Source: a virus (Duplodnaviria > Heunggongvirae > Uroviricota > Caudoviricetes). From it: DNA of 34,933 nt. The translations under genes and the position numbers were made by a program. The DNA lies in the IMG/VR virus record IMGVR_UViG_2778261280_000009, positions 1 to 34,933 of that record, one strand, 5' to 3'. Below, one piece after another: positions 20,274-25,588 of the stretch. A model generated the notes under the pieces. That model was not told the origin of the DNA. It ran no database searches and was given only the letters and a program-made list of their open reading frames with translations. Numbering within the stretch: the first letter of the stretch is position 1; every line of letters starts with the position of its first letter.

Positions 20274-20663
20274 TCAGGCGGCTGCACCCGCCGTTTTCTC
20301 GTACTTACTGATAGTGATCTCGACCTTCCCTTCCGGGATAACCGGTCCCCACTCCACCAGCATTCTTTTCACCTGACTGTCGTCTTCCCACACACCCGCA
20401 TGGGTCAGGGCGTCAAACAGCGCCTTGTTATAGTTGTCCAGATCGCGGATCCGGTTATCCGGAGGAAACAACACGATCTCCACTGAAGCAGGTGCCGACG
20501 TTGGTTTTGGCAGACGACGTAACTGCTCAACTATTGCTGCACACGCCGCGCTCTGGAATTTTCGCCCCGCCGCGCTTATCAGGCTCTTACCAGCAAACGC
20601 CCCTTTGTTGGGGTGTCGCCAGTACGTGTTCACGCTGGGCGGAAAAGGCAGAATCAGCTTCAT
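20274..20663 (-). CDS. rusA: Holliday junction resolvase RusA-like
   Basis: 129 aa; PSVNTYWRH...DLDNYNKALFDALT matches the RusA catalytic-core pattern (E. coli RusA is 120 aa). Confidence 0.8.
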   Translation of the reverse strand: MKLILPFPPSVNTYWRHPNKGAFAGKSLISAAGRKFQSAACAAIVEQLRRLPKPTSAPASVEIVLFPPDNRIRDLDNYNKALFDALTHAGVWEDDSQVKRMLVEWGPVIPEGKVEITISKYEKTAGAAA

Positions 20664-20986
20664 ACTTTCAGCTCCCTCTCATGTAACCAGTGGGCTGCAC
20701 GCAGCCTGGCGTTTTCCTCACCGGCAAGCAGTGCGCGGATAATCCCGACCGCCTCGCTGTCGTCGTCCTTCACCGCGGTATGAAGCGTTATCCCCCGGGC
20801 CACGCCACGCTTTATCGTGATGACGCCTTTTTTCTCCAGTGCGCGAAGATGCTCCACCGCTGCATTCACTGAACGGTATCCCAGCATGGTTGCCACCTCC
20901 TGATTGGTTGGCGGGAAGCCACGTTCTTGCTGGTAAGAAATCAGCATATCCAGCACCTGCTGCTGGCATTGAGTTAACGTCGTCAT
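20660..20986 (-). CDS. LexA-like DNA-binding domain protein without peptidase domain
   Basis: Start trimmed to MTTLTQCQQQVLDMLISYQQERGFPPTNQEVATMLGYRSVNAAVEHLRALEKKGVI, which aligns with the LexA N-terminal wHTH; AGGGAG Shine-Dalgarno; 109 aa with no S24 Ser/Lys domain. Confidence 0.65.
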   Translation of the reverse strand: MTTLTQCQQQVLDMLISYQQERGFPPTNQEVATMLGYRSVNAAVEHLRALEKKGVITIKRGVARGITLHTAVKDDDSEAVGIIRALLAGEENARLRAAHWLHERELKV

Positions 20987-21636
20987 GCCGCCATCTCCCT
21001 GACCAGTTTTTCCGCCTGCTGGCGAACCTGCGCCAGAAACGCCTCGCCACATGCCTCAAGTTCATCGCGCCCGATGTAGCTGATTGCCGGTCCCTTCCAG
21101 GTCTTGTCGAAAACAGCAATAGCACCAGCGAAGAAAGCGCCTGTCGGCACCTGCTTCTCATCCTTCGGGATAAACCAGGCAGGAAGTTCAAAACCAATAC
21201 GCCCGCGAATAAAAGCAATATGGTCTGCGTCTTCCGGCCACCACACTTCGCTGGTGGCAGCTTTGATCAGGAAAACATAGCGCCCGCCTTTATCACGCAT
21301 GGCACTGGCATGCTTCATGATGTAACGCATGCCGGTGATGTATTGCCCCTCATGCTGACTGGCGCGGCTGTATGGGGGATTACCAAAGGCAGCACCTTTA
21401 AGCTCCGCAAGACGTTCTGACCAGTCATGCGCCAGCGCGTTGTCTTCCGCCGTGTAATACGCGGCACATTTGGCGTTATCACCGTCAGTGAACAGATCCA
21501 GAACAAACGGGCCAAACAGGGTGTTAATTCCCCAGAAAATGTTATCCGGCGTGCGCCACTGATCGCCCACTTCCTTCAGTTCATGGGCTGGTTTGTTCCG
21601 CAGCTCCACCAGCGCCTGGCAATATTTATTACTCAT
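20983..21636 (-). CDS. Phage Dam-like N6-adenine DNA methyltransferase
   Basis: Start trimmed to MSNKYCQ (TAATG overlap with the upstream gene); catalytic FGNPPYS motif; 217 aa. Confidence 0.75.
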   Translation of the reverse strand: MSNKYCQALVELRNKPAHELKEVGDQWRTPDNIFWGINTLFGPFVLDLFTDGDNAKCAAYYTAEDNALAHDWSERLAELKGAAFGNPPYSRASQHEGQYITGMRYIMKHASAMRDKGGRYVFLIKAATSEVWWPEDADHIAFIRGRIGFELPAWFIPKDEKQVPTGAFFAGAIAVFDKTWKGPAISYIGRDELEACGEAFLAQVRQQAEKLVREMAA

Positions 21637-22130
21637 TAAGCCCCCACGTAATTCCCTGACAGATACCACTCTTCACCTGATGCAGCGCGCTTGCTGCTTT
21701 TCCGTAAGCACCGCTCACGACGCGCCAGAAAATTGTTTCGTTCTGGCTGGGAGTGGCTTTCACGGAATGCCGCCATCCACACCGTTGCAGCACGACGGTA
21801 TAAGCCCCTGGACTCCAGTTCTTCCGCCTGGCGGGTCAGGCACAAAATCACCCGGGGATCGTTAGTGCCGACATAGAAATTGCGCACAGGTCTGGTTTCA
21901 CGAACTGGTTGTGGTTCCGGCTCCTGCGCTCTCTCAGTCAGGCGTGGGAAATGTCTGCGTGTATCTCCTTCACAACGGTGAGCCACACGCCCACTCTGAC
22001 GTAACTTGCTTGCTGACTGCAGAAAGCGCTGCCGTGAGTAACCTGCAAAAGCATCCGCAATGTCTCCGGAAGTACAGCCCGGATGGGCTTCAATGAATTT
22101 CTGAACTTCATTCAAAAGACTCATGATCAC
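21636..22130 (-). CDS. Hypothetical phage protein (164 aa), possibly a transcriptional regulator
   Basis: ORF overlapping both neighbours in operon fashion; Arg-rich C-terminal half; family uncertain (size recalls YfdN of CPS-53). Confidence 0.4.
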   Translation of the reverse strand: MIMSLLNEVQKFIEAHPGCTSGDIADAFAGYSRQRFLQSASKLRQSGRVAHRCEGDTRRHFPRLTERAQEPEPQPVRETRPVRNFYVGTNDPRVILCLTRQAEELESRGLYRRAATVWMAAFRESHSQPERNNFLARRERCLRKSSKRAASGEEWYLSGNYVGA

Positions 22131-22969
22131 CCCCTGAATCCTGCCGGGATCTGGCTGTAGTCCACGTTGTCGTAACTGGCTTTGAAGTACGGGTCCTCGC
22201 GTCTGGCTGCAGATACCGCAGGAACTTCCCAGGATTCTTCGAAATGACGATCCGGACCAAAGAACGTGACAGCCTGTTTCACAAATTGTGTGCCGCTGTT
22301 ACCCATCGCAGATACCCAGCCCGCGTAGCGTTTCACACCTTCCAGCATGGTTTCGGGGTTTACCCCCTCATTCAAACGGGCTTTCCAGGCTTTGAAGGCT
22401 GCAGATTTTGAATTGCCACCAGCACGTTTGGGATATGCCAGCCATGCCTGCTCAAACTCCGGAGAGTATTCCGGTCGGTTTGAACTAACTCGCACAGACT
22501 CATCAGCAGATTCACCAACAGCTATTGGTTCATTGACTGGTTCTTTGACTGGTTCTTTGACTGGTTCTTTGACTGGTTCAAAAGAGTGACTGGTTCTGGG
22601 TGAATCTCCTGCACTACCCCCTAGTGCAACTCCTGCACTACCTAGTGAATTTGCTGCACCAGATAGTGAATTATTTGCACTACCCCCTAGTGAATCTCCT
22701 GCACCATCCAGATGAAGGAGATAGATATTACTTGAGTTACCTTTTTCACCTTTCCGGGTGACTTTTTTTACCAGCCCAGACTCACAGAGGGCCGCAATAT
22801 GATTCATCACAGAACGTTTGCTAATCTCGCACTGATCAGCGATATGCTGATAGCTGGGCCAGCACTCACCCTGATCGCTGGCATTATCAGCCAGCTTGAT
22901 CAGAACCAGTTTTCGCAATGGATTACCCACTCGAATTTTCATCGCTTTAACCATCAGCTCCATACTCAT
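22127..22969 (-). CDS. Replication initiator, O-like (N-terminal wHTH, repeat linker, C-terminal domain)
   Basis: 280 aa; N-terminal LRKLVLIKLADNASDQGECWPSYQHIADQCEISKRSVMNHIAALCESGLV is wHTH-like; internal EPVK x4 and Gly/Ser/Ala repeats are encoded by DNA direct repeats; sits downstream of cro/cII. Confidence 0.5.
   Translation of the reverse strand: MSMELMVKAMKIRVGNPLRKLVLIKLADNASDQGECWPSYQHIADQCEISKRSVMNHIAALCESGLVKKVTRKGEKGNSSNIYLLHLDGAGDSLGGSANNSLSGAANSLGSAGVALGGSAGDSPRTSHSFEPVKEPVKEPVKEPVNEPIAVGESADESVRVSSNRPEYSPEFEQAWLAYPKRAGGNSKSAAFKAWKARLNEGVNPETMLEGVKRYAGWVSAMGNSGTQFVKQAVTFFGPDRHFEESWEVPAVSAARREDPYFKASYDNVDYSQIPAGFRG
22535..22709 (-). repeat. Iteron-like direct repeats inside the O-like gene (putative replication origin)
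   Basis: GACTGGTTCTTT x3.75 at 22535..22579, plus five imperfect ~21-bp copies of TAGTGAAT.T.CTGCAC at 22598..22709. Confidence 0.5.
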
Positions 22970-23202
22970 GCTGCACCTCCGAGATGCTTCATGTTTTTTC
23001 CGGAGCGAAAGGTTATAAGCGGCATACTGACGCGGTAATTACGGCCCAGCGGTTCACAAATCACCTTCTGACATTCACGGTCAACCAGGCTAACACGTAG
23101 AACATGCCCTGCAGGCGTGGTGTACCACTGCCCAACTGTAGGAATTGATGTTTTTTTACGCTGAAATAAACGGTAAATGTTGAGGATCAACGGATTAAGC
23201 AT
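22966..23202 (-). CDS. Hypothetical protein (78 aa)
   Basis: ORF overlapping both neighbours in the early operon; no family recognised. Confidence 0.3.
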   Translation of the reverse strand: MLNPLILNIYRLFQRKKTSIPTVGQWYTTPAGHVLRVSLVDRECQKVICEPLGRNYRVSMPLITFRSGKNMKHLGGAA

Positions 23203-24031
23203 GACGATGCCCTCCGCTGATATTCAGGAGACGGTGAATATGAAAATTAGCCTTATCCGCCAGACGAATACGTTCAGCCTGCAAGTTAAGAAGGGTTTCT
23301 ACCAGAACCTGATGCGCCTGCGGATCCGAAAGAGTTACCTTGCGCAGAGCACGTAGTGCAGTTGTTACATAACTGAGTTTATGTAAGTCTTCATCATTCA
23401 GACGAGTGAGGGCTGGGACAGTAGCCATGATGGCAGCCTCCGTATGCAATGGATAACTTCCACCACCGGAAACGCCAATTTCGCTGGTGGTGAACTGAGC
23501 AGGGTTGGCGTAACCGGCGCATACGGAAACCGGCGCACCTTTCGGTGCCCCCACCCAGCCCACCATAATTTGGGTATAGCTGAGTTGTAGCAACAAAAAA
23601 GACGCTAACGCGCCAATTGTCGCCGTATGCAATTCCAGGACGCCAATCCCGGCACCCGCTTTATAAGGTGCCTGAACAGTGTAACGTCCCGGAATGGCAG
23701 AATCAATGTGCTGGTGGTCCTTCACACTCAACAAAATCACGCCTGAATTTCCACAAAGGACTAAAGCACTCATGCGGGTAGTCTTTGCGAAGATAGATAA
23801 CGCGCTGTGTTTCTGGCTCCCAACGAATAACATGGACATAAAGCCCTCTTCCGTCACGAAACCAGCGGTTAAGTTCCTGCACAACTCGCCCCCCACAGTC
23901 AGGTAAAGTTCTCTGTGGTTACTTACAGCCAGGTGATTTGGTAATCTGCATTCATGCCGTAACAACAGGTGTTCAGCGACACTGACCACCAGCTGTTGCG
24001 ACAAACGGTTATTTGCCGTTAAACTGTTCAT
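23195..24031 (-). CDS. Hypothetical phage early protein (278 aa)
   Basis: Long ORF in operon context between the CII-like and O-like genes; no family recognised. Confidence 0.4.
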   Translation of the reverse strand: MNSLTANNRLSQQLVVSVAEHLLLRHECRLPNHLAVSNHRELYLTVGGELCRNLTAGFVTEEGFMSMLFVGSQKHSALSIFAKTTRMSALVLCGNSGVILLSVKDHQHIDSAIPGRYTVQAPYKAGAGIGVLELHTATIGALASFLLLQLSYTQIMVGWVGAPKGAPVSVCAGYANPAQFTTSEIGVSGGGSYPLHTEAAIMATVPALTRLNDEDLHKLSYVTTALRALRKVTLSDPQAHQVLVETLLNLQAERIRLADKANFHIHRLLNISGGHRHA

Positions 24032-24622: not shown

Positions 24623-24823
24623 TTAATCTTTCGGATAGATATCCGGTCTTAAGTCAGATTTCGTAATTGCACCTGACGTGCATTGCTCAAGTTTTTTAGC
24701 CAGCACAAAACTGGCTTTTTTATAACCATTGAAAACCAGCCGTAAGTAGCCTGGTGTTGAGCCAACTTTTCCGGCCAACTCGCCCTGCTGTTCTTTGGTT
24801 AAAGAGTCCCAATACGCTTTCAT
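24623..24823 (-). CDS. cro: Cro-like repressor
   Basis: Start trimmed to MKAYWDSLTKEQ (66 aa) with a GGAGGT Shine-Dalgarno; divergent from the cI-like gene across a 90-bp operator region. Confidence 0.6.
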   Translation of the reverse strand: MKAYWDSLTKEQQGELAGKVGSTPGYLRLVFNGYKKASFVLAKKLEQCTSGAITKSDLRPDIYPKD

Positions 24824-24878
24824 ACAATATGTACCTCCAATATACATATTACATGATTGAGATGAACCTTCAAGATAC

Positions 24879-24897
24879 TTGTACCCTATCGGTACAA
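24879..24897. promoter_or_regulatory. Operator candidate, palindrome TTGTACC-N5-GGTACAA, in the cro/cI intergenic region
   Basis: Perfect 7-bp inverted repeat with a 5-bp spacer; overlaps a candidate PRM -35 (TTGTAC) whose -10 (TTTAAT) would place the start at the cI ATG. Confidence 0.45.
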
Positions 24898-24913
24898 AGG
24901 TTTTAATTTCGTT

Positions 24914-25588
24914 ATGAAAACAGTCCATGACATCCGGCGGTCTAACGCCAGAAAACTGAGAGATGGTGTTGGCGGGAATTCTTCCTTTGCCACCATGATT
25001 GATCGCGAGCCAACCCAGACCAGCAGGTTTATGGGAGATGGTGCTACTAAAAATATCGGTGACAGCATGGCACGGCACATCGAAAAATGTTTCGACCTGC
25101 CTGTCGGATGGCTTGATCAAGAACACCAGACAACAAACATCACAAAAAAACCTGATGTTTCAATTACTAACAAACAAATAACGTTAGTCCCCGTCATATC
25201 ATGGGTACAGGCCGGAGCATGGAAAGAAGTTGGCTATTCTGAGGTTGATTTGAGCACAGCAGAAACTTATCCCTGCCCTGTACCCTGTGGCGAAATGACT
25301 TATATCTTGCGGGTGATTGGTGATTCAATGATTGATGAGTACCGCCCGGGAGACATGATTTTTGTAGATCCTGAAGTCCCTGCCTGCCACGGTGACGACG
25401 TTATTGCATTGATGCACGATTCAGGCGAAACCACCTTCAAGCGGTTGATAGAAGATGGAACACAGCGTTATCTCAAAGCATTAAACCCAAACTGGCCTGA
25501 GCCTTACATTAAGATTAACGGTAATTGCTCTATAATTGGTACAGTGATTTTCTCTGGAAAACCAAGAAGATACACAATAAAGGCCTAA
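24914..25588 (+). CDS. cI: CI-type prophage repressor (S24 LexA-like autopeptidase domain)
   Basis: 224 aa; C-terminal domain with GDSM catalytic Ser and downstream Lys; C-terminus ...LNPNWPEPYIKINGNCSIIGTV resembles P22 C2. Confidence 0.8.
   Translation: MKTVHDIRRSNARKLRDGVGGNSSFATMIDREPTQTSRFMGDGATKNIGDSMARHIEKCFDLPVGWLDQEHQTTNITKKPDVSITNKQITLVPVISWVQAGAWKEVGYSEVDLSTAETYPCPVPCGEMTYILRVIGDSMIDEYRPGDMIFVDPEVPACHGDDVIALMHDSGETTFKRLIEDGTQRYLKALNPNWPEPYIKINGNCSIIGTVIFSGKPRRYTIKA

What the first reader, a model, noticed from the sequence alone, without database searches (positions are those of the whole stretch)
22535..22709. Two families of direct repeats inside the O-like gene, as expected for a lambda-type origin
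The 12-bp unit GACTGGTTCTTT occurs 3.75 times (22535..22579) and an imperfect ~21-bp unit TAGTGAAT.T.CTGCAC about five times (22598..22709). Both lie in the middle of the replication-initiator gene, where they encode the EPVK and Gly/Ser/Ala linker. In lambda the iterons that bind O lie inside the O gene in just this way. Copy-number variation would also change the linker length.
Basis: partly seen in the sequence, partly recalled or inferred. Interest (0 to 1): 0.45.

Follow-up and report, generated by a model that had tools for sequence, protein, structure and literature searches.

The report
Phage replication origin inside initiator gene
The repeats are real and are very probably the replication origin of an SfV/ST64B-type prophage, sitting inside its own initiator gene as in phage lambda; this is an expected kind of feature, but it maps the origin of a poorly understood "initiator-only" class of lambdoid phages.

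Summary
Both repeat families exist as described. They lie in the minus-strand gene 22127..22969 (280 aa), which encodes an N-terminal winged-helix domain (Pfam HTH_36), a disordered linker and a C-terminal domain.

The ~21-bp family is five 19-bp sites with dyad symmetry (TRGTGCA-N5-TGCACYA), spaced 24/21/21/24 bp. These sites occur nowhere else in the window.

Comparative evidence points to initiator-binding iterons selected as DNA:
- Every relative examined has such an array at the same place.
- The half-site changes together with the recognition helix.
- Wobble positions are among the most conserved.
- In some relatives the spacing is 22/23 bp, so the same DNA repeat is read in different frames.

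The 12-bp repeat is not a second iteron family. It is an expansion of a 10-mer, GAACCAGTCA, that belongs to a ~38-bp DNA block conserved across the family. In that block, codon identity among identical residues is 95%, against 39% in the N-domain. I infer that the block is the unwinding or helicase-entry part of the origin.

Copy numbers vary: about 1-10 iterons (mode 5) and 2-5 copies of the 10-mer.

No helicase or loader gene follows the initiator. The initiator ends in a DnaT-like tail, SQIPAGFRG.

No binding or replication experiment was possible. This is a new member of a known kind.

The parts
22127..22969 (-). Replication initiator gene (280 aa), SfV orf39 / ST64B sb42 / E. coli 'helix-turn-helix domain-containing protein' type
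   Evidence: ORF list. Pfam HTH_36 at aa 17-67, E=1.9e-11, and a weak DnaD_N match. PHROG 270 'replication initiation protein', E=7.8e-88. 95-97% identical genes in SfV, cdtI, mEp460 and Stx2 phages.
22706..22969 (-). Coding region of the N-terminal winged-helix DNA-binding domain (aa 1-88); recognition helix about aa 50-62 (SKRSVMNHIAAL)
   Evidence: AlphaFold2 pLDDT about 85, helices plus a beta-hairpin wing. Foldseek hits are generic winged-helix proteins, including the DnaD N-domain. The recognition helix covaries with the iteron half-site across the family.
22688..22706 (-). Iteron 1, TGGTGCAGGAGATTCACTA
22664..22682 (-). Iteron 2, TAGTGCAAATAATTCACTA
22643..22661 (-). Iteron 3, TGGTGCAGCAAATTCACTA
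22622..22640 (-). Iteron 4, TAGTGCAGGAGTTGCACTA (perfect 7-bp inverted arms TAGTGCA/TGCACTA)
   Evidence: It matches the dyad pattern on both strands.
22598..22616 (-). Iteron 5, TAGTGCAGGAGATTCACCC; its last three bases overlap the conserved block
22563..22600 (-). Family-wide conserved DNA block CCC AGA ACC AGT CAC TCT TTT GAA CCA GTC AAA GAA CC (encodes PRTSHSFEPVKEP). It contains direct 10-mers GAACCAGTCA 17 bp apart. Candidate unwinding or helicase-entry element.
   Evidence: Near-identical block directly 3' of lineage-specific iterons in phages of Escherichia, Salmonella, Aeromonas, Vibrio, Pectobacterium and Stenotrophomonas. Identical-codon fraction is 95% (288/302) in the block against 39% (692/1788) in the N-domain. 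The exact pattern occurs in at least 120 IMG/VR stretches, always inside this gene family.
22522..22579 (-). 12-bp tandem array (GAACCAGTCAAA)x3, then GAACCAGTCAAT, then a decayed copy. It is an expansion of the second 10-mer of the conserved block and encodes (EPVK)3-EPVN-EP.
   Evidence: TRF. Exact 10-mer copies at 22570-79, 22558-67, 22546-55 and 22534-43. Relatives carry 1-4 twelve-mers. Among 80 contigs with an identical N-domain, 10-mer counts range 2-5, mode 3.
22475..22705 (-). Coding region of the intrinsically disordered linker (aa 89-165) that houses the iterons, block and 12-mers
   Evidence: AlphaFold2 pLDDT about 30 for aa 91-165, with no secondary structure.
22705..22760 (.). 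Least stable duplex segment next to the array (AT 67%), on the side of the iterons opposite to the block. Alternative candidate unwinding region.
   Evidence: Nearest-neighbour stability profile: 22705-22745 is at the 98.6th percentile of the window, while the 12-mer region is at about the 88-90th percentile. AT-richest 40-nt window of the gene.
22130..22474 (-). C-terminal domain coding region (aa 166-280), presumed helicase-recruitment domain
   Evidence: PHROG 26426, 3729 and 1701 ('replication protein', 'DnaD-like helicase loader') match aa 149-280. Three helices at moderate confidence.
22130..22156 (-). C-terminal tail SQIPAGFRG, matching the extreme C-terminus of E. coli DnaT (SQIPPGFRG)
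   Evidence: BLASTP 8/9 identical, both at the C-terminus. The tail is present in 59 distinct proteins, none of which has a DnaC-like gene downstream. It is absent in 4, all of which have one.

Best explanation
Window 22522..22760 is the replication origin of an SfV/ST64B-type lambdoid prophage, embedded in the linker-coding middle of its own initiator gene.

Shown:
- Five 19-bp dyad-symmetric sites lie 21-24 bp apart.
- They are followed by a DNA block that is conserved at the nucleotide level across the whole initiator family, and then by an expanded 12-bp array derived from that block.
- The encoded peptide is predicted to be disordered.

Inferred:
- Dimers of the N-terminal winged-helix domain bind the five sites. 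This bends or wraps the DNA and destabilises an adjacent segment, which is either the conserved GAACCAGTCA 10-mer block plus 12-mers or the AT-rich 22705-22760 on the other side.
- The C-terminal domain then brings in the host helicase. The phage encodes no helicase or loader, so this probably happens through the DnaT-like SQIPAGFRG tail, which would couple to the host DnaC-DnaB/primosome route.
- Transcription of the gene from the early rightward promoter passes through the origin, as in lambda.
- The extra 12-mer copies, and the gain or loss of iterons, arise by slippage or unequal recombination. They change linker length and are probably nearly neutral within limits.
For: 1. Anatomy. The 19-bp dyad cores are spaced 24/21/21/24 bp and occur only here in 35 kb.

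2. Conservation of the feature with divergence of its sequence. All 10 N-domain relatives taken from annotated phages have 3-6 dyad repeats spaced 21-24 bp at nt ~260-380 of the gene. So do most of 53 further distinct IMG/VR variants.

3. Specificity covariation between recognition helix and half-site:
- SKRSVMNHI goes with TRGTGCA..TGCACYA
- SKSAVRxHI goes with GCAYAG..CTRTGC
- DRSTVRRHI goes with GTAGGC..GCCTAC
- GRSTVKVHI goes with GGGCAG..CTGCCC
- TRRSAINHI goes with GTGAAA..TTTCAC
- SRKTAIGHI goes with GTGTAA..TTACAC
- DKRTAMRHI goes with GTGACA..TGTCAC

4. Selection acts on DNA, not on the peptide.
- In a logo of 60 distinct class-A copies, the wobble positions that were not used to select the copies (1, 19) are strongly conserved, and the consensus is palindromic.
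- Between the window and Aeromonas phage AsXd-1, codon identity among identical residues is 100% (25/25) in the array against 50% (33/66) in the N-domain.
- In relatives L245, L240, L292 and L220 the spacing is 22/23 bp, so one DNA repeat is translated in two or three frames.

5. The encoded region is disordered (pLDDT ~30), which leaves the DNA free to carry cis signals.

6. Genomic role. The gene sits in the lambda O position. In relatives, the same N-domain and iteron module is fused to other C-domains and followed by a lambda-P homologue, a DnaC-like loader, a DnaB-like helicase or a Toprim primase-helicase.

7. Conserved block. Codon identity is 95% against 39% in the N-domain, and substitutions are spread over all codon positions. 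The block occurs with every partner type.

8. Tail. SQIPAGFRG matches the DnaT C-terminus and is mutually exclusive with a downstream DnaC-like gene, 59 against 4.

9. Ori-lambda has the same plan: it lies inside O and has 19-bp inverted repeats that bind O dimers next to a region that opens (PMC5043065).
Against: - There is no experimental evidence for binding, unwinding or origin firing for this family in anything I could read. PMC12315714 states that O-only lambdoid phages are unstudied.
- There is no strongly AT-rich tract like lambda's 40-bp region. The block and 12-mers are only ~58-62% AT, and the least stable segment lies on the other side of the array. The position of the unwinding element is therefore uncertain.
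- There are no DnaA boxes or IHF consensus sites near the array.
- Variants with only 1-2 iterons exist in genomes. Whether those prophages replicate is unknown.
- The covariation table is qualitative, and lineages are not independent.
- The DnaT link rests on 9 residues. The rest of the C-domain is not detectably DnaT-like (hhalign probability 0.6%), and I found no paper on what that tail does in DnaT.
Confidence: 0.8

Rival explanations
1. The repeats are selected only as a peptide: a flexible Gly/Ser/Ala and EPVK linker of adjustable length between two protein domains. The DNA repeats would be a by-product with no cis-acting role.
For: The region encodes a low-complexity, predicted-disordered linker. 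Spacing in this phage is a multiple of three. Copy number varies among otherwise near-identical genes.
Against: Wobble positions are among the most conserved, and rare codons (CTA, AGA) are fixed. The units are palindromic, which a peptide repeat has no reason to be. Relatives with 22/23-bp spacing translate the same DNA repeat into unrelated peptides. The half-site covaries with the recognition helix.
Confidence: 0.04
2. The dyad sites are operators, not an origin. The winged-helix domain would bind inside its own gene to autoregulate or to block transcription, and replication would start elsewhere, or by recombination-dependent or host-primosome routes without a fixed origin.
For: Winged-helix proteins of this fold are mostly transcription factors. 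O-only lambdoid phages have been linked to recombination-dependent growth and are uncharacterised (PMC12315714). There is no strong AT tract.
Against: Relatives with the same N-domain and array are immediately followed by lambda-P, DnaC-like, DnaB-like or primase-helicase genes, which is a replication-module signature. The PHROG families are replication initiators. Five phased sites followed by a conserved non-coding-like block matches origin architecture better than an operator.
Confidence: 0.1
3. The conserved block and its 12-mer expansion have no replication function. The block would be a conserved junction ('linker') at which homologous recombination swaps C-terminal modules between phages, and the 12-mers would be neutral slippage products.
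For: The block lies exactly where the shared N-domain and iteron module is joined to at least 14 different C-terminal classes. The 12-mer copy number ranges from 1 to 4 among close relatives, which argues against a strict requirement.
Against: Nucleotide identity is maintained across phages of distant hosts whose flanking N-domain has drifted to 39% codon identity. Second-order selection for recombination is weak. The block has an internal direct-repeat structure (10-mers at 17 and 12 bp) that is kept even in diverged members: Morganella phage, mEp044, Min27. About half of the newly sampled distinct variants lack the block, so it is not universal.
Confidence: 0.2

Closest known systems
ori-lambda within gene O of phage lambda (and the six-iteron origins of 933W-type Stx phages, PMC7466680)
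   Same: The origin is embedded in the linker-coding middle of the initiator gene. It has multiple 19-bp sites with dyad symmetry, suited to dimers, about two helical turns apart. The type-specific sites are followed by a more generally conserved segment. The gene sits after cI/cro/cII and is transcribed through (PMC5043065).
   Different: The initiator N-domain is Pfam HTH_36 and does not hit Phage_rep_O. There are five sites instead of four or six. There is no 40-bp strongly A+T-rich tract; instead there is a conserved GAACCAGTCA 10-mer block. There is no P gene. The statement that the right part of ori is shared among lambdoid phages (Grosschedl and Hobom 1979) is from memory.
'O-only' lambdoid replication modules, e.g. 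phage LLS (Genome Res 2025, PMC12315714)
   Same: A single O-type initiator gene with no helicase or loader. ST64B relatives are named in that paper. That paper counts 34 of 314 Enterobacteriales lambdoid phages in this class and says their replication is not understood.
   Different: That paper does not describe iterons (0 occurrences) or the DnaT-like tail. I did not test whether the LLS O protein belongs to the same sequence family.
Iteron plasmids (RK2, R6K, P1, pSC101 type)
   Same: An array of phased initiator sites next to an unwinding element made of short direct repeats. The initiator uses a winged-helix fold (PMC5043065).
   Different: Plasmid iterons are direct repeats bound by monomers and lie outside the rep gene. 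DnaA boxes and IHF or other nucleoid-protein sites are usual there, and none are found near this array. Here the sites are palindromic and intragenic.
Primosome adaptors DnaD (Firmicutes) and DnaT (E. coli)
   Same: Weak DnaD_N Pfam match (E=3.7e-5, below the cut-off) and a DnaD N-domain among the fold hits. PHROG 'DnaD-like helicase loader' matches the C-domain. The last nine residues match the DnaT C-terminus.
   Different: There is no significant similarity to DnaT beyond the tail. DnaD and DnaT are not known as sequence-specific iteron binders. The C-domain fold could not be resolved.

Membership tests
Lambda-type intragenic iteron origin | The repeats lie inside the initiator gene, between its DNA-binding N-domain and its C-domain | tested here: met
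   Array at gene nt 264-372, after the winged-helix domain (aa 1-88) and before the C-domain (aa 166-280).
Lambda-type intragenic iteron origin | Several (at least 3-4) copies of a ~19-bp site with internal dyad symmetry | tested here: met
   Five copies, consensus TRGTGCA-N5-TGCACYA. Iteron 4 has perfect 7-bp arms.
Lambda-type intragenic iteron origin | Sites phased at about two helical turns | tested here: met
   Spacing 24, 21, 21, 24 bp. Relatives show 21-24 bp, including 22/23.
Lambda-type intragenic iteron origin | Adjacent A+T-rich unwinding region | tested here: inconclusive
   The flanks are only 58-67% AT. The least stable 40-mer (22705-22745) is at the 98.6th percentile, and the block/12-mer side at the 88-90th. 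There is no lambda-like 40-bp AT tract.
Lambda-type intragenic iteron origin | The initiator binds the repeats specifically | not testable with these tools
   Only indirect evidence: the recognition helix and half-site covary across at least 7 specificity classes.
Lambda-type intragenic iteron origin | Replication starts there and depends on the initiator | not testable with these tools
   No experimental report was found for this family.
Lambda O/P replication module | Initiator belongs to the lambda O family (Pfam Phage_rep_O) | tested here: not met
   Pfam scan at E<=0.01 returns HTH_36, DnaD_N and other HTH families, but not Phage_rep_O.
Lambda O/P replication module | A P-type helicase loader (or other helicase or loader) is encoded next to the initiator | tested here: not met
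   The downstream genes are PerC-like, Dam, LexA-DBD-like and RusA. Relatives with other C-domains do have P, DnaC-like or DnaB-like genes.
Iteron-plasmid type origin | Direct (non-palindromic) iterons bound by Rep monomers, with DnaA boxes and IHF or other nucleoid-protein sites | tested here: not met
   The sites are palindromic. There is no TTWTNCACA or WATCAANNNNTTR within the gene.
DnaT (primosomal protein i) family | Sequence similarity across the DnaT domains | tested here: not met
   Only the last 9 residues match. hhalign probability is 0.6%. No Pfam DnaT hit.
Coding tandem repeat (slippage-prone linker) | Copy number varies among near-identical genes and is always in frame | tested here: met
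   12-mers range from 1 to 4 copies. Ten-mer counts range 2-5 in 80 contigs. Iteron counts range from about 1 to 10 in protein clusters of 242-302 aa. This is compatible with, not opposed to, the origin reading.

The most novel reading that the evidence does not exclude
Two linked proposals.

First, the family-wide GAACCAGTCA 10-mer block, which this phage has expanded into the 12-bp array, is a previously undescribed universal origin element of HTH_36-type phage initiators. It would serve as the unwinding or helicase-entry site, and it would work whichever helicase system is used: lambda-P, DnaC-like, DnaB-like, primase-helicase or host-only.

Second, 'initiator-only' lambdoid phages dispense with their own loader because the initiator carries a mimic of the DnaT C-terminal tail. 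That tail would plug the origin complex directly into the host DnaT/DnaC-DnaB loading route.
Probability: 0.3. Interest if true: 0.65.

Novelty: new member of a known kind. Interest (0 to 1): 0.45.

Why it matters
This initiator gene is widespread. Matches occur in 2718 of 5426 complete E. coli genomes, full-length in 880. It is also present in Shigella serotype-converting phages, Salmonella ST64B-like phages, the cdt phage and several Stx2 phages, including the Eru6 type representative Stx2a_WGPS2.

A 2025 survey states that replication of lambdoid phages encoding only an O-type protein "is not yet understood" (PMC12315714). A mapped candidate origin, defined binding sites with a specificity code, a conserved cis element and a candidate host-coupling tail turn that question into a handful of simple experiments.

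There are practical uses too. Iteron number and 12-mer number are length-variable markers for typing these prophages. The origin fragment could titrate the initiator and so interfere with induction of toxin-converting phages.

Tried and rejected
- **Solved structures.** A sequence search of the PDB gave no meaningful hit; the best E-value was 0.95.
- **Fold search.** Foldseek with the full-length model found only generic winged-helix proteins for the N-domain, with nothing at E<=0.001.
- **C-domain model.** AlphaFold2 on the C-domain alone gave mean pLDDT 52, so I ran no fold search on it. The C-domain fold stays unresolved.
- **DnaT.** Profile comparison with DnaT showed no similarity beyond the tail.
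- **Host-factor sites and signals.** I found no DnaA boxes or IHF sites in or near the gene. There was no promoter-like site in the array. One terminator-like hairpin on the antisense strand at 22746-22761 is at chance level.
- **RNA element.** No Rfam family matches at the site.
- **AT-rich tract after the block.** The averaged profile shows only the block itself as a mild AT maximum.
- **Literature.**
  - The SfV genome paper is not held.
  - The two Eru papers classify this region type but never mention iterons or origins.
  - Full-text searches for the motifs themselves returned only unrelated primer hits.
  - Searches for 'initiator-solo' and for HTH_36 plus iterons found nothing relevant.
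- **Antisense ORFs.** The plus-strand ORFs 22347..22589 and 22600..22761 are antisense reading-frame artefacts of the repeats. They have no independent support.
Full report
**1. The observation**

The finding lies in a minus-strand ORF, 22127..22969 (280 aa). Tandem Repeats Finder reports a 12-bp array at 22526-22579 (4.5 copies, 97% matches). It also reports a 21/24-bp array at 22600-22704.

The repeat finder resolves the second array into five copies at 22596-22706 with spacing 24, 21, 21, 24 bp. Read on the gene strand, the cores are 19-mers close to TAGTGCAGGAGATTCACTA. Iteron 4 (TAGTGCA GGAGT TGCACTA) is a perfect 7-bp inverted repeat.

The 19-mer with up to 3 mismatches, and the dyad pattern GTGCA-N5-TKCAC, occur only in this array in the whole 34.9-kb window. 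Shuffles predict 0.00 and 0.29 matches respectively.

**2. The gene and its neighbourhood**

The protein has three parts:
- An N-terminal HTH_36 winged-helix domain (Pfam E=1.9e-11, plus a sub-threshold DnaD_N match).
- No Pfam match in the middle.
- A C-terminal part that matches only PHROG replication families. The whole protein matches PHROG 270 'replication initiation protein' at 7.8e-88. The C-part also matches 'DnaD-like helicase loader'.

It does not hit the lambda O family Phage_rep_O.

Upstream on the same strand lie:
- a small ORF (PHROG 1153);
- an Ash-family ORF that contains C4 antisense RNA and isrK Rfam matches;
- a CII-like gene (CP76) and a cro-like gene;
- a divergent S24-peptidase repressor.

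Downstream lie a PerC-like regulator (yfdN type), a Dam methylase, a LexA-DBD-like ORF and RusA. There is no helicase, primase or loader gene.

This is the layout of Shigella phage SfV, where orf39 is annotated 'replication protein'. Near-identical genes occur in cdtI, mEp460, Ayreon, 2H10, ST64B and many Stx2 phages. One of these is Stx2a_WGPS2, the representative of the 'Eru6' replication-region type. Matches are found in 2718 of 5426 complete E. coli genomes.

**3. Is the 21-bp family a set of initiator-binding sites?**

I fetched ten phages whose only selection criterion was similarity to the N-domain (31-85% identity): Aeromonas AsXd-1, Vibrio D67/D173/D96a, Min27, Salmonella S107, Pectobacterium ZF40, Stenotrophomonas BUCT708, a Morganella phage and mEp044. 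Every one has 3-6 repeats, 21-24 bp apart, starting about 260 nt into the gene. Nearly all of 53 further distinct N-domain variants from IMG/VR show the same.

The repeats are dyad-symmetric in each lineage, but their sequence differs. The half-site tracks the recognition helix:

| Recognition helix | Half-sites |
|---|---|
| SKRSVMNHI | TRGTGCA..TGCACYA |
| SERSVQNHI | GGTGCA..TGCACC |
| SKSAVRxHI | GCAYAG..CTRTGC |
| DRSTVRRHI | GTAGGC..GCCTAC |
| GRSTVKVHI | GGGCAG..CTGCCC |
| TRRSAINHI | GTGAAA..TTTCAC |
| SRKTAIGHI | GTGTAA..TTACAC |
| DKRTAMRHI | GTGACA..TGTCAC |

Conserved position, spacing and symmetry, combined with sequence that co-varies with the reading head, is what one expects of cognate protein-DNA pairs.

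**4. Is the selection on DNA or on the peptide?**

Three tests all point to DNA.
- I compiled 60 distinct copies of the window-type site. Copy selection fixed positions 3-5, 7, 13 and 15-17. Among positions not used for selection, the wobble positions 1 and 19 (55/60 each) and position 6 (53/60) are strongly conserved, and the consensus T-R-G-T-G-C-A / T-K-C-A-C-Y-A is palindromic. Rare codons such as CTA and AGA are fixed.
- Between the window and AsXd-1, identical residues use identical codons in 25 of 25 cases in the array. In the N-domain the figure is 33 of 66.
- In relatives L245, L240, L292 and L220 the repeat spacing is 22 or 23 bp. The same DNA unit is therefore read in two or three different frames and gives unrelated peptides, for example SVLETSRS, SPQRRPLE and VRTGDLPY in L220.

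A peptide-repeat explanation cannot account for this. AlphaFold2 predicts residues 91-165, exactly the part encoded by the repeats, to be disordered (pLDDT ~30). The N-domain is a confident winged helix (pLDDT ~85). The protein imposes few constraints there, which explains why an origin can live in the gene.

**5. The 12-bp repeat**

Immediately after the lineage-specific iterons, most relatives share nearly the same nucleotides: CC AGA ACC AGT CAC TCT TTT GAA CCA GTC AAa GAA CC, encoding PRTSHSFEPVKEP.

Across nine lineages, identical residues in this block use identical codons in 288 of 302 pairwise cases (95%). In the N-domain the figure is 692 of 1788 (39%). The few substitutions fall on all three codon positions and are often non-synonymous.

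The exact 28-nt core occurs in at least 120 IMG/VR stretches. In each it lies inside a gene of this family, 258-417 nt from the start in intact genes. Among 53 newly sampled distinct variants, a set depleted of exact matches, 28 carry the block with up to 4 mismatches.

The block is itself a direct repeat of the 10-mer GAACCAGTCA, with copies at 17 and then about 12 bp. Diverged members (Morganella phage, mEp044, Min27) keep the repeated-10-mer structure even where the spacer changes.

The window's 12-bp array is simply extra copies of the second 10-mer. It has five exact copies at 22534-22596. SfV, cdtI and ST64B have three, Stx2c_EH0430 has two and Stx2c_JNE082796 has four.

Among 80 contigs with an identical N-domain, the 10-mer count is 3 in 62, 2 in 12, 4 in 2 and 5 in 1, with 3 loci not classified. 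Iteron counts are 5 in 73, 6 in 2 and 7 in 1. The remaining four are scored as 4 because one copy exceeds the mismatch limit.

Protein clusters of 242, 250, 272, 294, 296 and 302 aa correspond to about 1, 2, 5, 8, 9 and 9-10 iterons. The 272-aa form is by far the commonest, with 2852 member sequences.

**6. How it probably works**

By analogy with ori-lambda, I infer the following. Ori-lambda lies inside O and has four 19-bp inverted repeats that bind O dimers, with opening of the adjacent A+T-rich DNA (PMC5043065). Here, dimers of the winged-helix domain would occupy the five sites, and a neighbouring segment would open.

Which neighbour opens is uncertain.
- The conserved block plus 12-mers is my first candidate. 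It is conserved independently of iteron specificity and of helicase type. It consists of short direct repeats, and it is A-rich on one strand (AT skew -0.6).
- However, that side is only ~58-62% AT, at the 88-90th percentile of duplex instability.
- The least stable 40-mer (22705-22745, 98.6th percentile) lies on the other side of the array.

**7. Helicase recruitment**

The same N-domain, iteron and block module is fused to at least 14 different C-terminal classes. The next gene differs by class:
- a lambda-P homologue (L227, L278);
- a DnaC/IstB-like ATPase (L118, L268, AsXd-1);
- a DnaB-like helicase (L220, L265, ZF40, BUCT708);
- a Toprim primase-helicase (S107, Min27);
- nothing replicative, as in the window/SfV class.

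This modularity fixes the family's role as origin-recognition proteins. It also shows that the window belongs to the 'O-only' type. Zheng et al. (Genome Res 2025, PMC12315714) count 34 of 314 lambdoid phages in this type and call it experimentally unstudied.

The window protein ends in SQIPAGFRG. E. coli DnaT ends in SQIPPGFRG: 8 of 9 residues match, and both are at the extreme C-terminus.

Within the window-type C-domain class:
- 59 distinct proteins carry the ..PxGFRG tail, and none has a DnaC-like gene downstream.
- All 4 proteins with other tails do have one.

By Fisher's exact test this is p about 2e-6, but the lineages are not independent.

I therefore propose that the tail couples the origin complex to the host DnaT/DnaC-DnaB loading route. 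This is inference. The rest of the C-domain is not detectably DnaT-like, its fold could not be modelled, and I found no paper on what the DnaT tail does.

**8. Rivals**

- **Pure linker-peptide reading.** Essentially excluded by section 4.
- **Operator-only reading.** This cannot be excluded without experiments. It fits the replication-gene neighbourhoods of the relatives poorly.
- **Recombination junction.** The block might be a conserved recombination junction rather than an origin element. Its location at the module boundary favours this. Its internal repeat structure and strong nucleotide conservation across distant hosts argue against it.

**9. Novelty and verdict**

An iteron origin inside an O-type gene is textbook, and databases already label this gene 'replication initiation O-like'. 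The finding as stated is therefore a new member of a known kind.

In the library I could search, I did not find any of the following: the iterons of this family, the helix/half-site code, the nucleotide-conserved 10-mer block, or the DnaT-like tail and its exclusivity with a loader gene. The older, non-open literature could not be checked. That includes the SfV and ST64B genome papers and the 2006 review of phage replication modules.

These extras make a currently open question directly testable: how O-only lambdoid phages replicate. Interest 0.45.

Noticed in passing
window 22130-22156 (-): The initiator's last nine residues, SQIPAGFRG, match the extreme C-terminus of E. coli primosomal protein DnaT (SQIPPGFRG). 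Among proteins with this C-domain, the tail and a downstream DnaC-like gene are mutually exclusive: 59 with the tail and no such gene, 4 without the tail and all with the gene.
   Followed up: partly
window 23483-23570 (-) and 23595-23671 (-): Two Rfam matches, C4 antisense RNA (80.7 bits) and isrK Hfq-binding RNA (61.2 bits), lie inside the long 'Ash-family' ORF 23195..24031. SfV annotates this ORF as 'immunity region'. It suggests a P1/P7-type antisense immunity element between the cII-like gene and the replication gene.
   Followed up: no
window 20660-21052 (-): This ORF encodes a LexA N-terminal DNA-binding-domain-like protein without the peptidase domain (cdtI annotates its counterpart as 'RecA-mediated autopeptidases'). 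It sits between Dam (20983-21669) and RusA (20274-20663).
   Followed up: no
window 24623-25126 (-) versus 24914-25588 (+): The mechanical 167-aa ORF with a YdaS-like C-terminus overlaps the divergent cI-like repressor gene. The real cro-like gene is probably only the last ~66 codons, as in SfV cro (201 nt).
   Followed up: no
L237 (IMGVR_UViG_3300032135_000350), iteron region of the homologous gene: One relative carries an inverted pair of perfect DnaA boxes, TGTGGATAAcTTATCCACA, next to its iterons. This hints that some family members also use host DnaA. None is present in the window.
   Followed up: no
L245, L240, L292, L220 (IMG/VR relatives): The iterons are spaced 22/23 bp, so the same DNA repeat is translated in two or three reading frames within one gene. 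This is a clean natural demonstration of DNA-level selection inside a coding region.
   Followed up: yes
protein clusters P0040 (242 aa), P0031 (250 aa, 64 contigs), P0024 (296 aa): Natural variants exist with only one or two iterons, and one has five tandem copies of a single 21-bp unit (SAGVAPG x5) with a single 12-mer. Whether the low-copy variants mark replication-defective prophages is unknown.
   Followed up: partly
window 22347-22589 (+) and 22600-22761 (+): Antisense ORFs of 80 and 53 aa are created by the repeats (LTGS x4 and LLHYPLV repeats). They have no support as genes.
   Followed up: no
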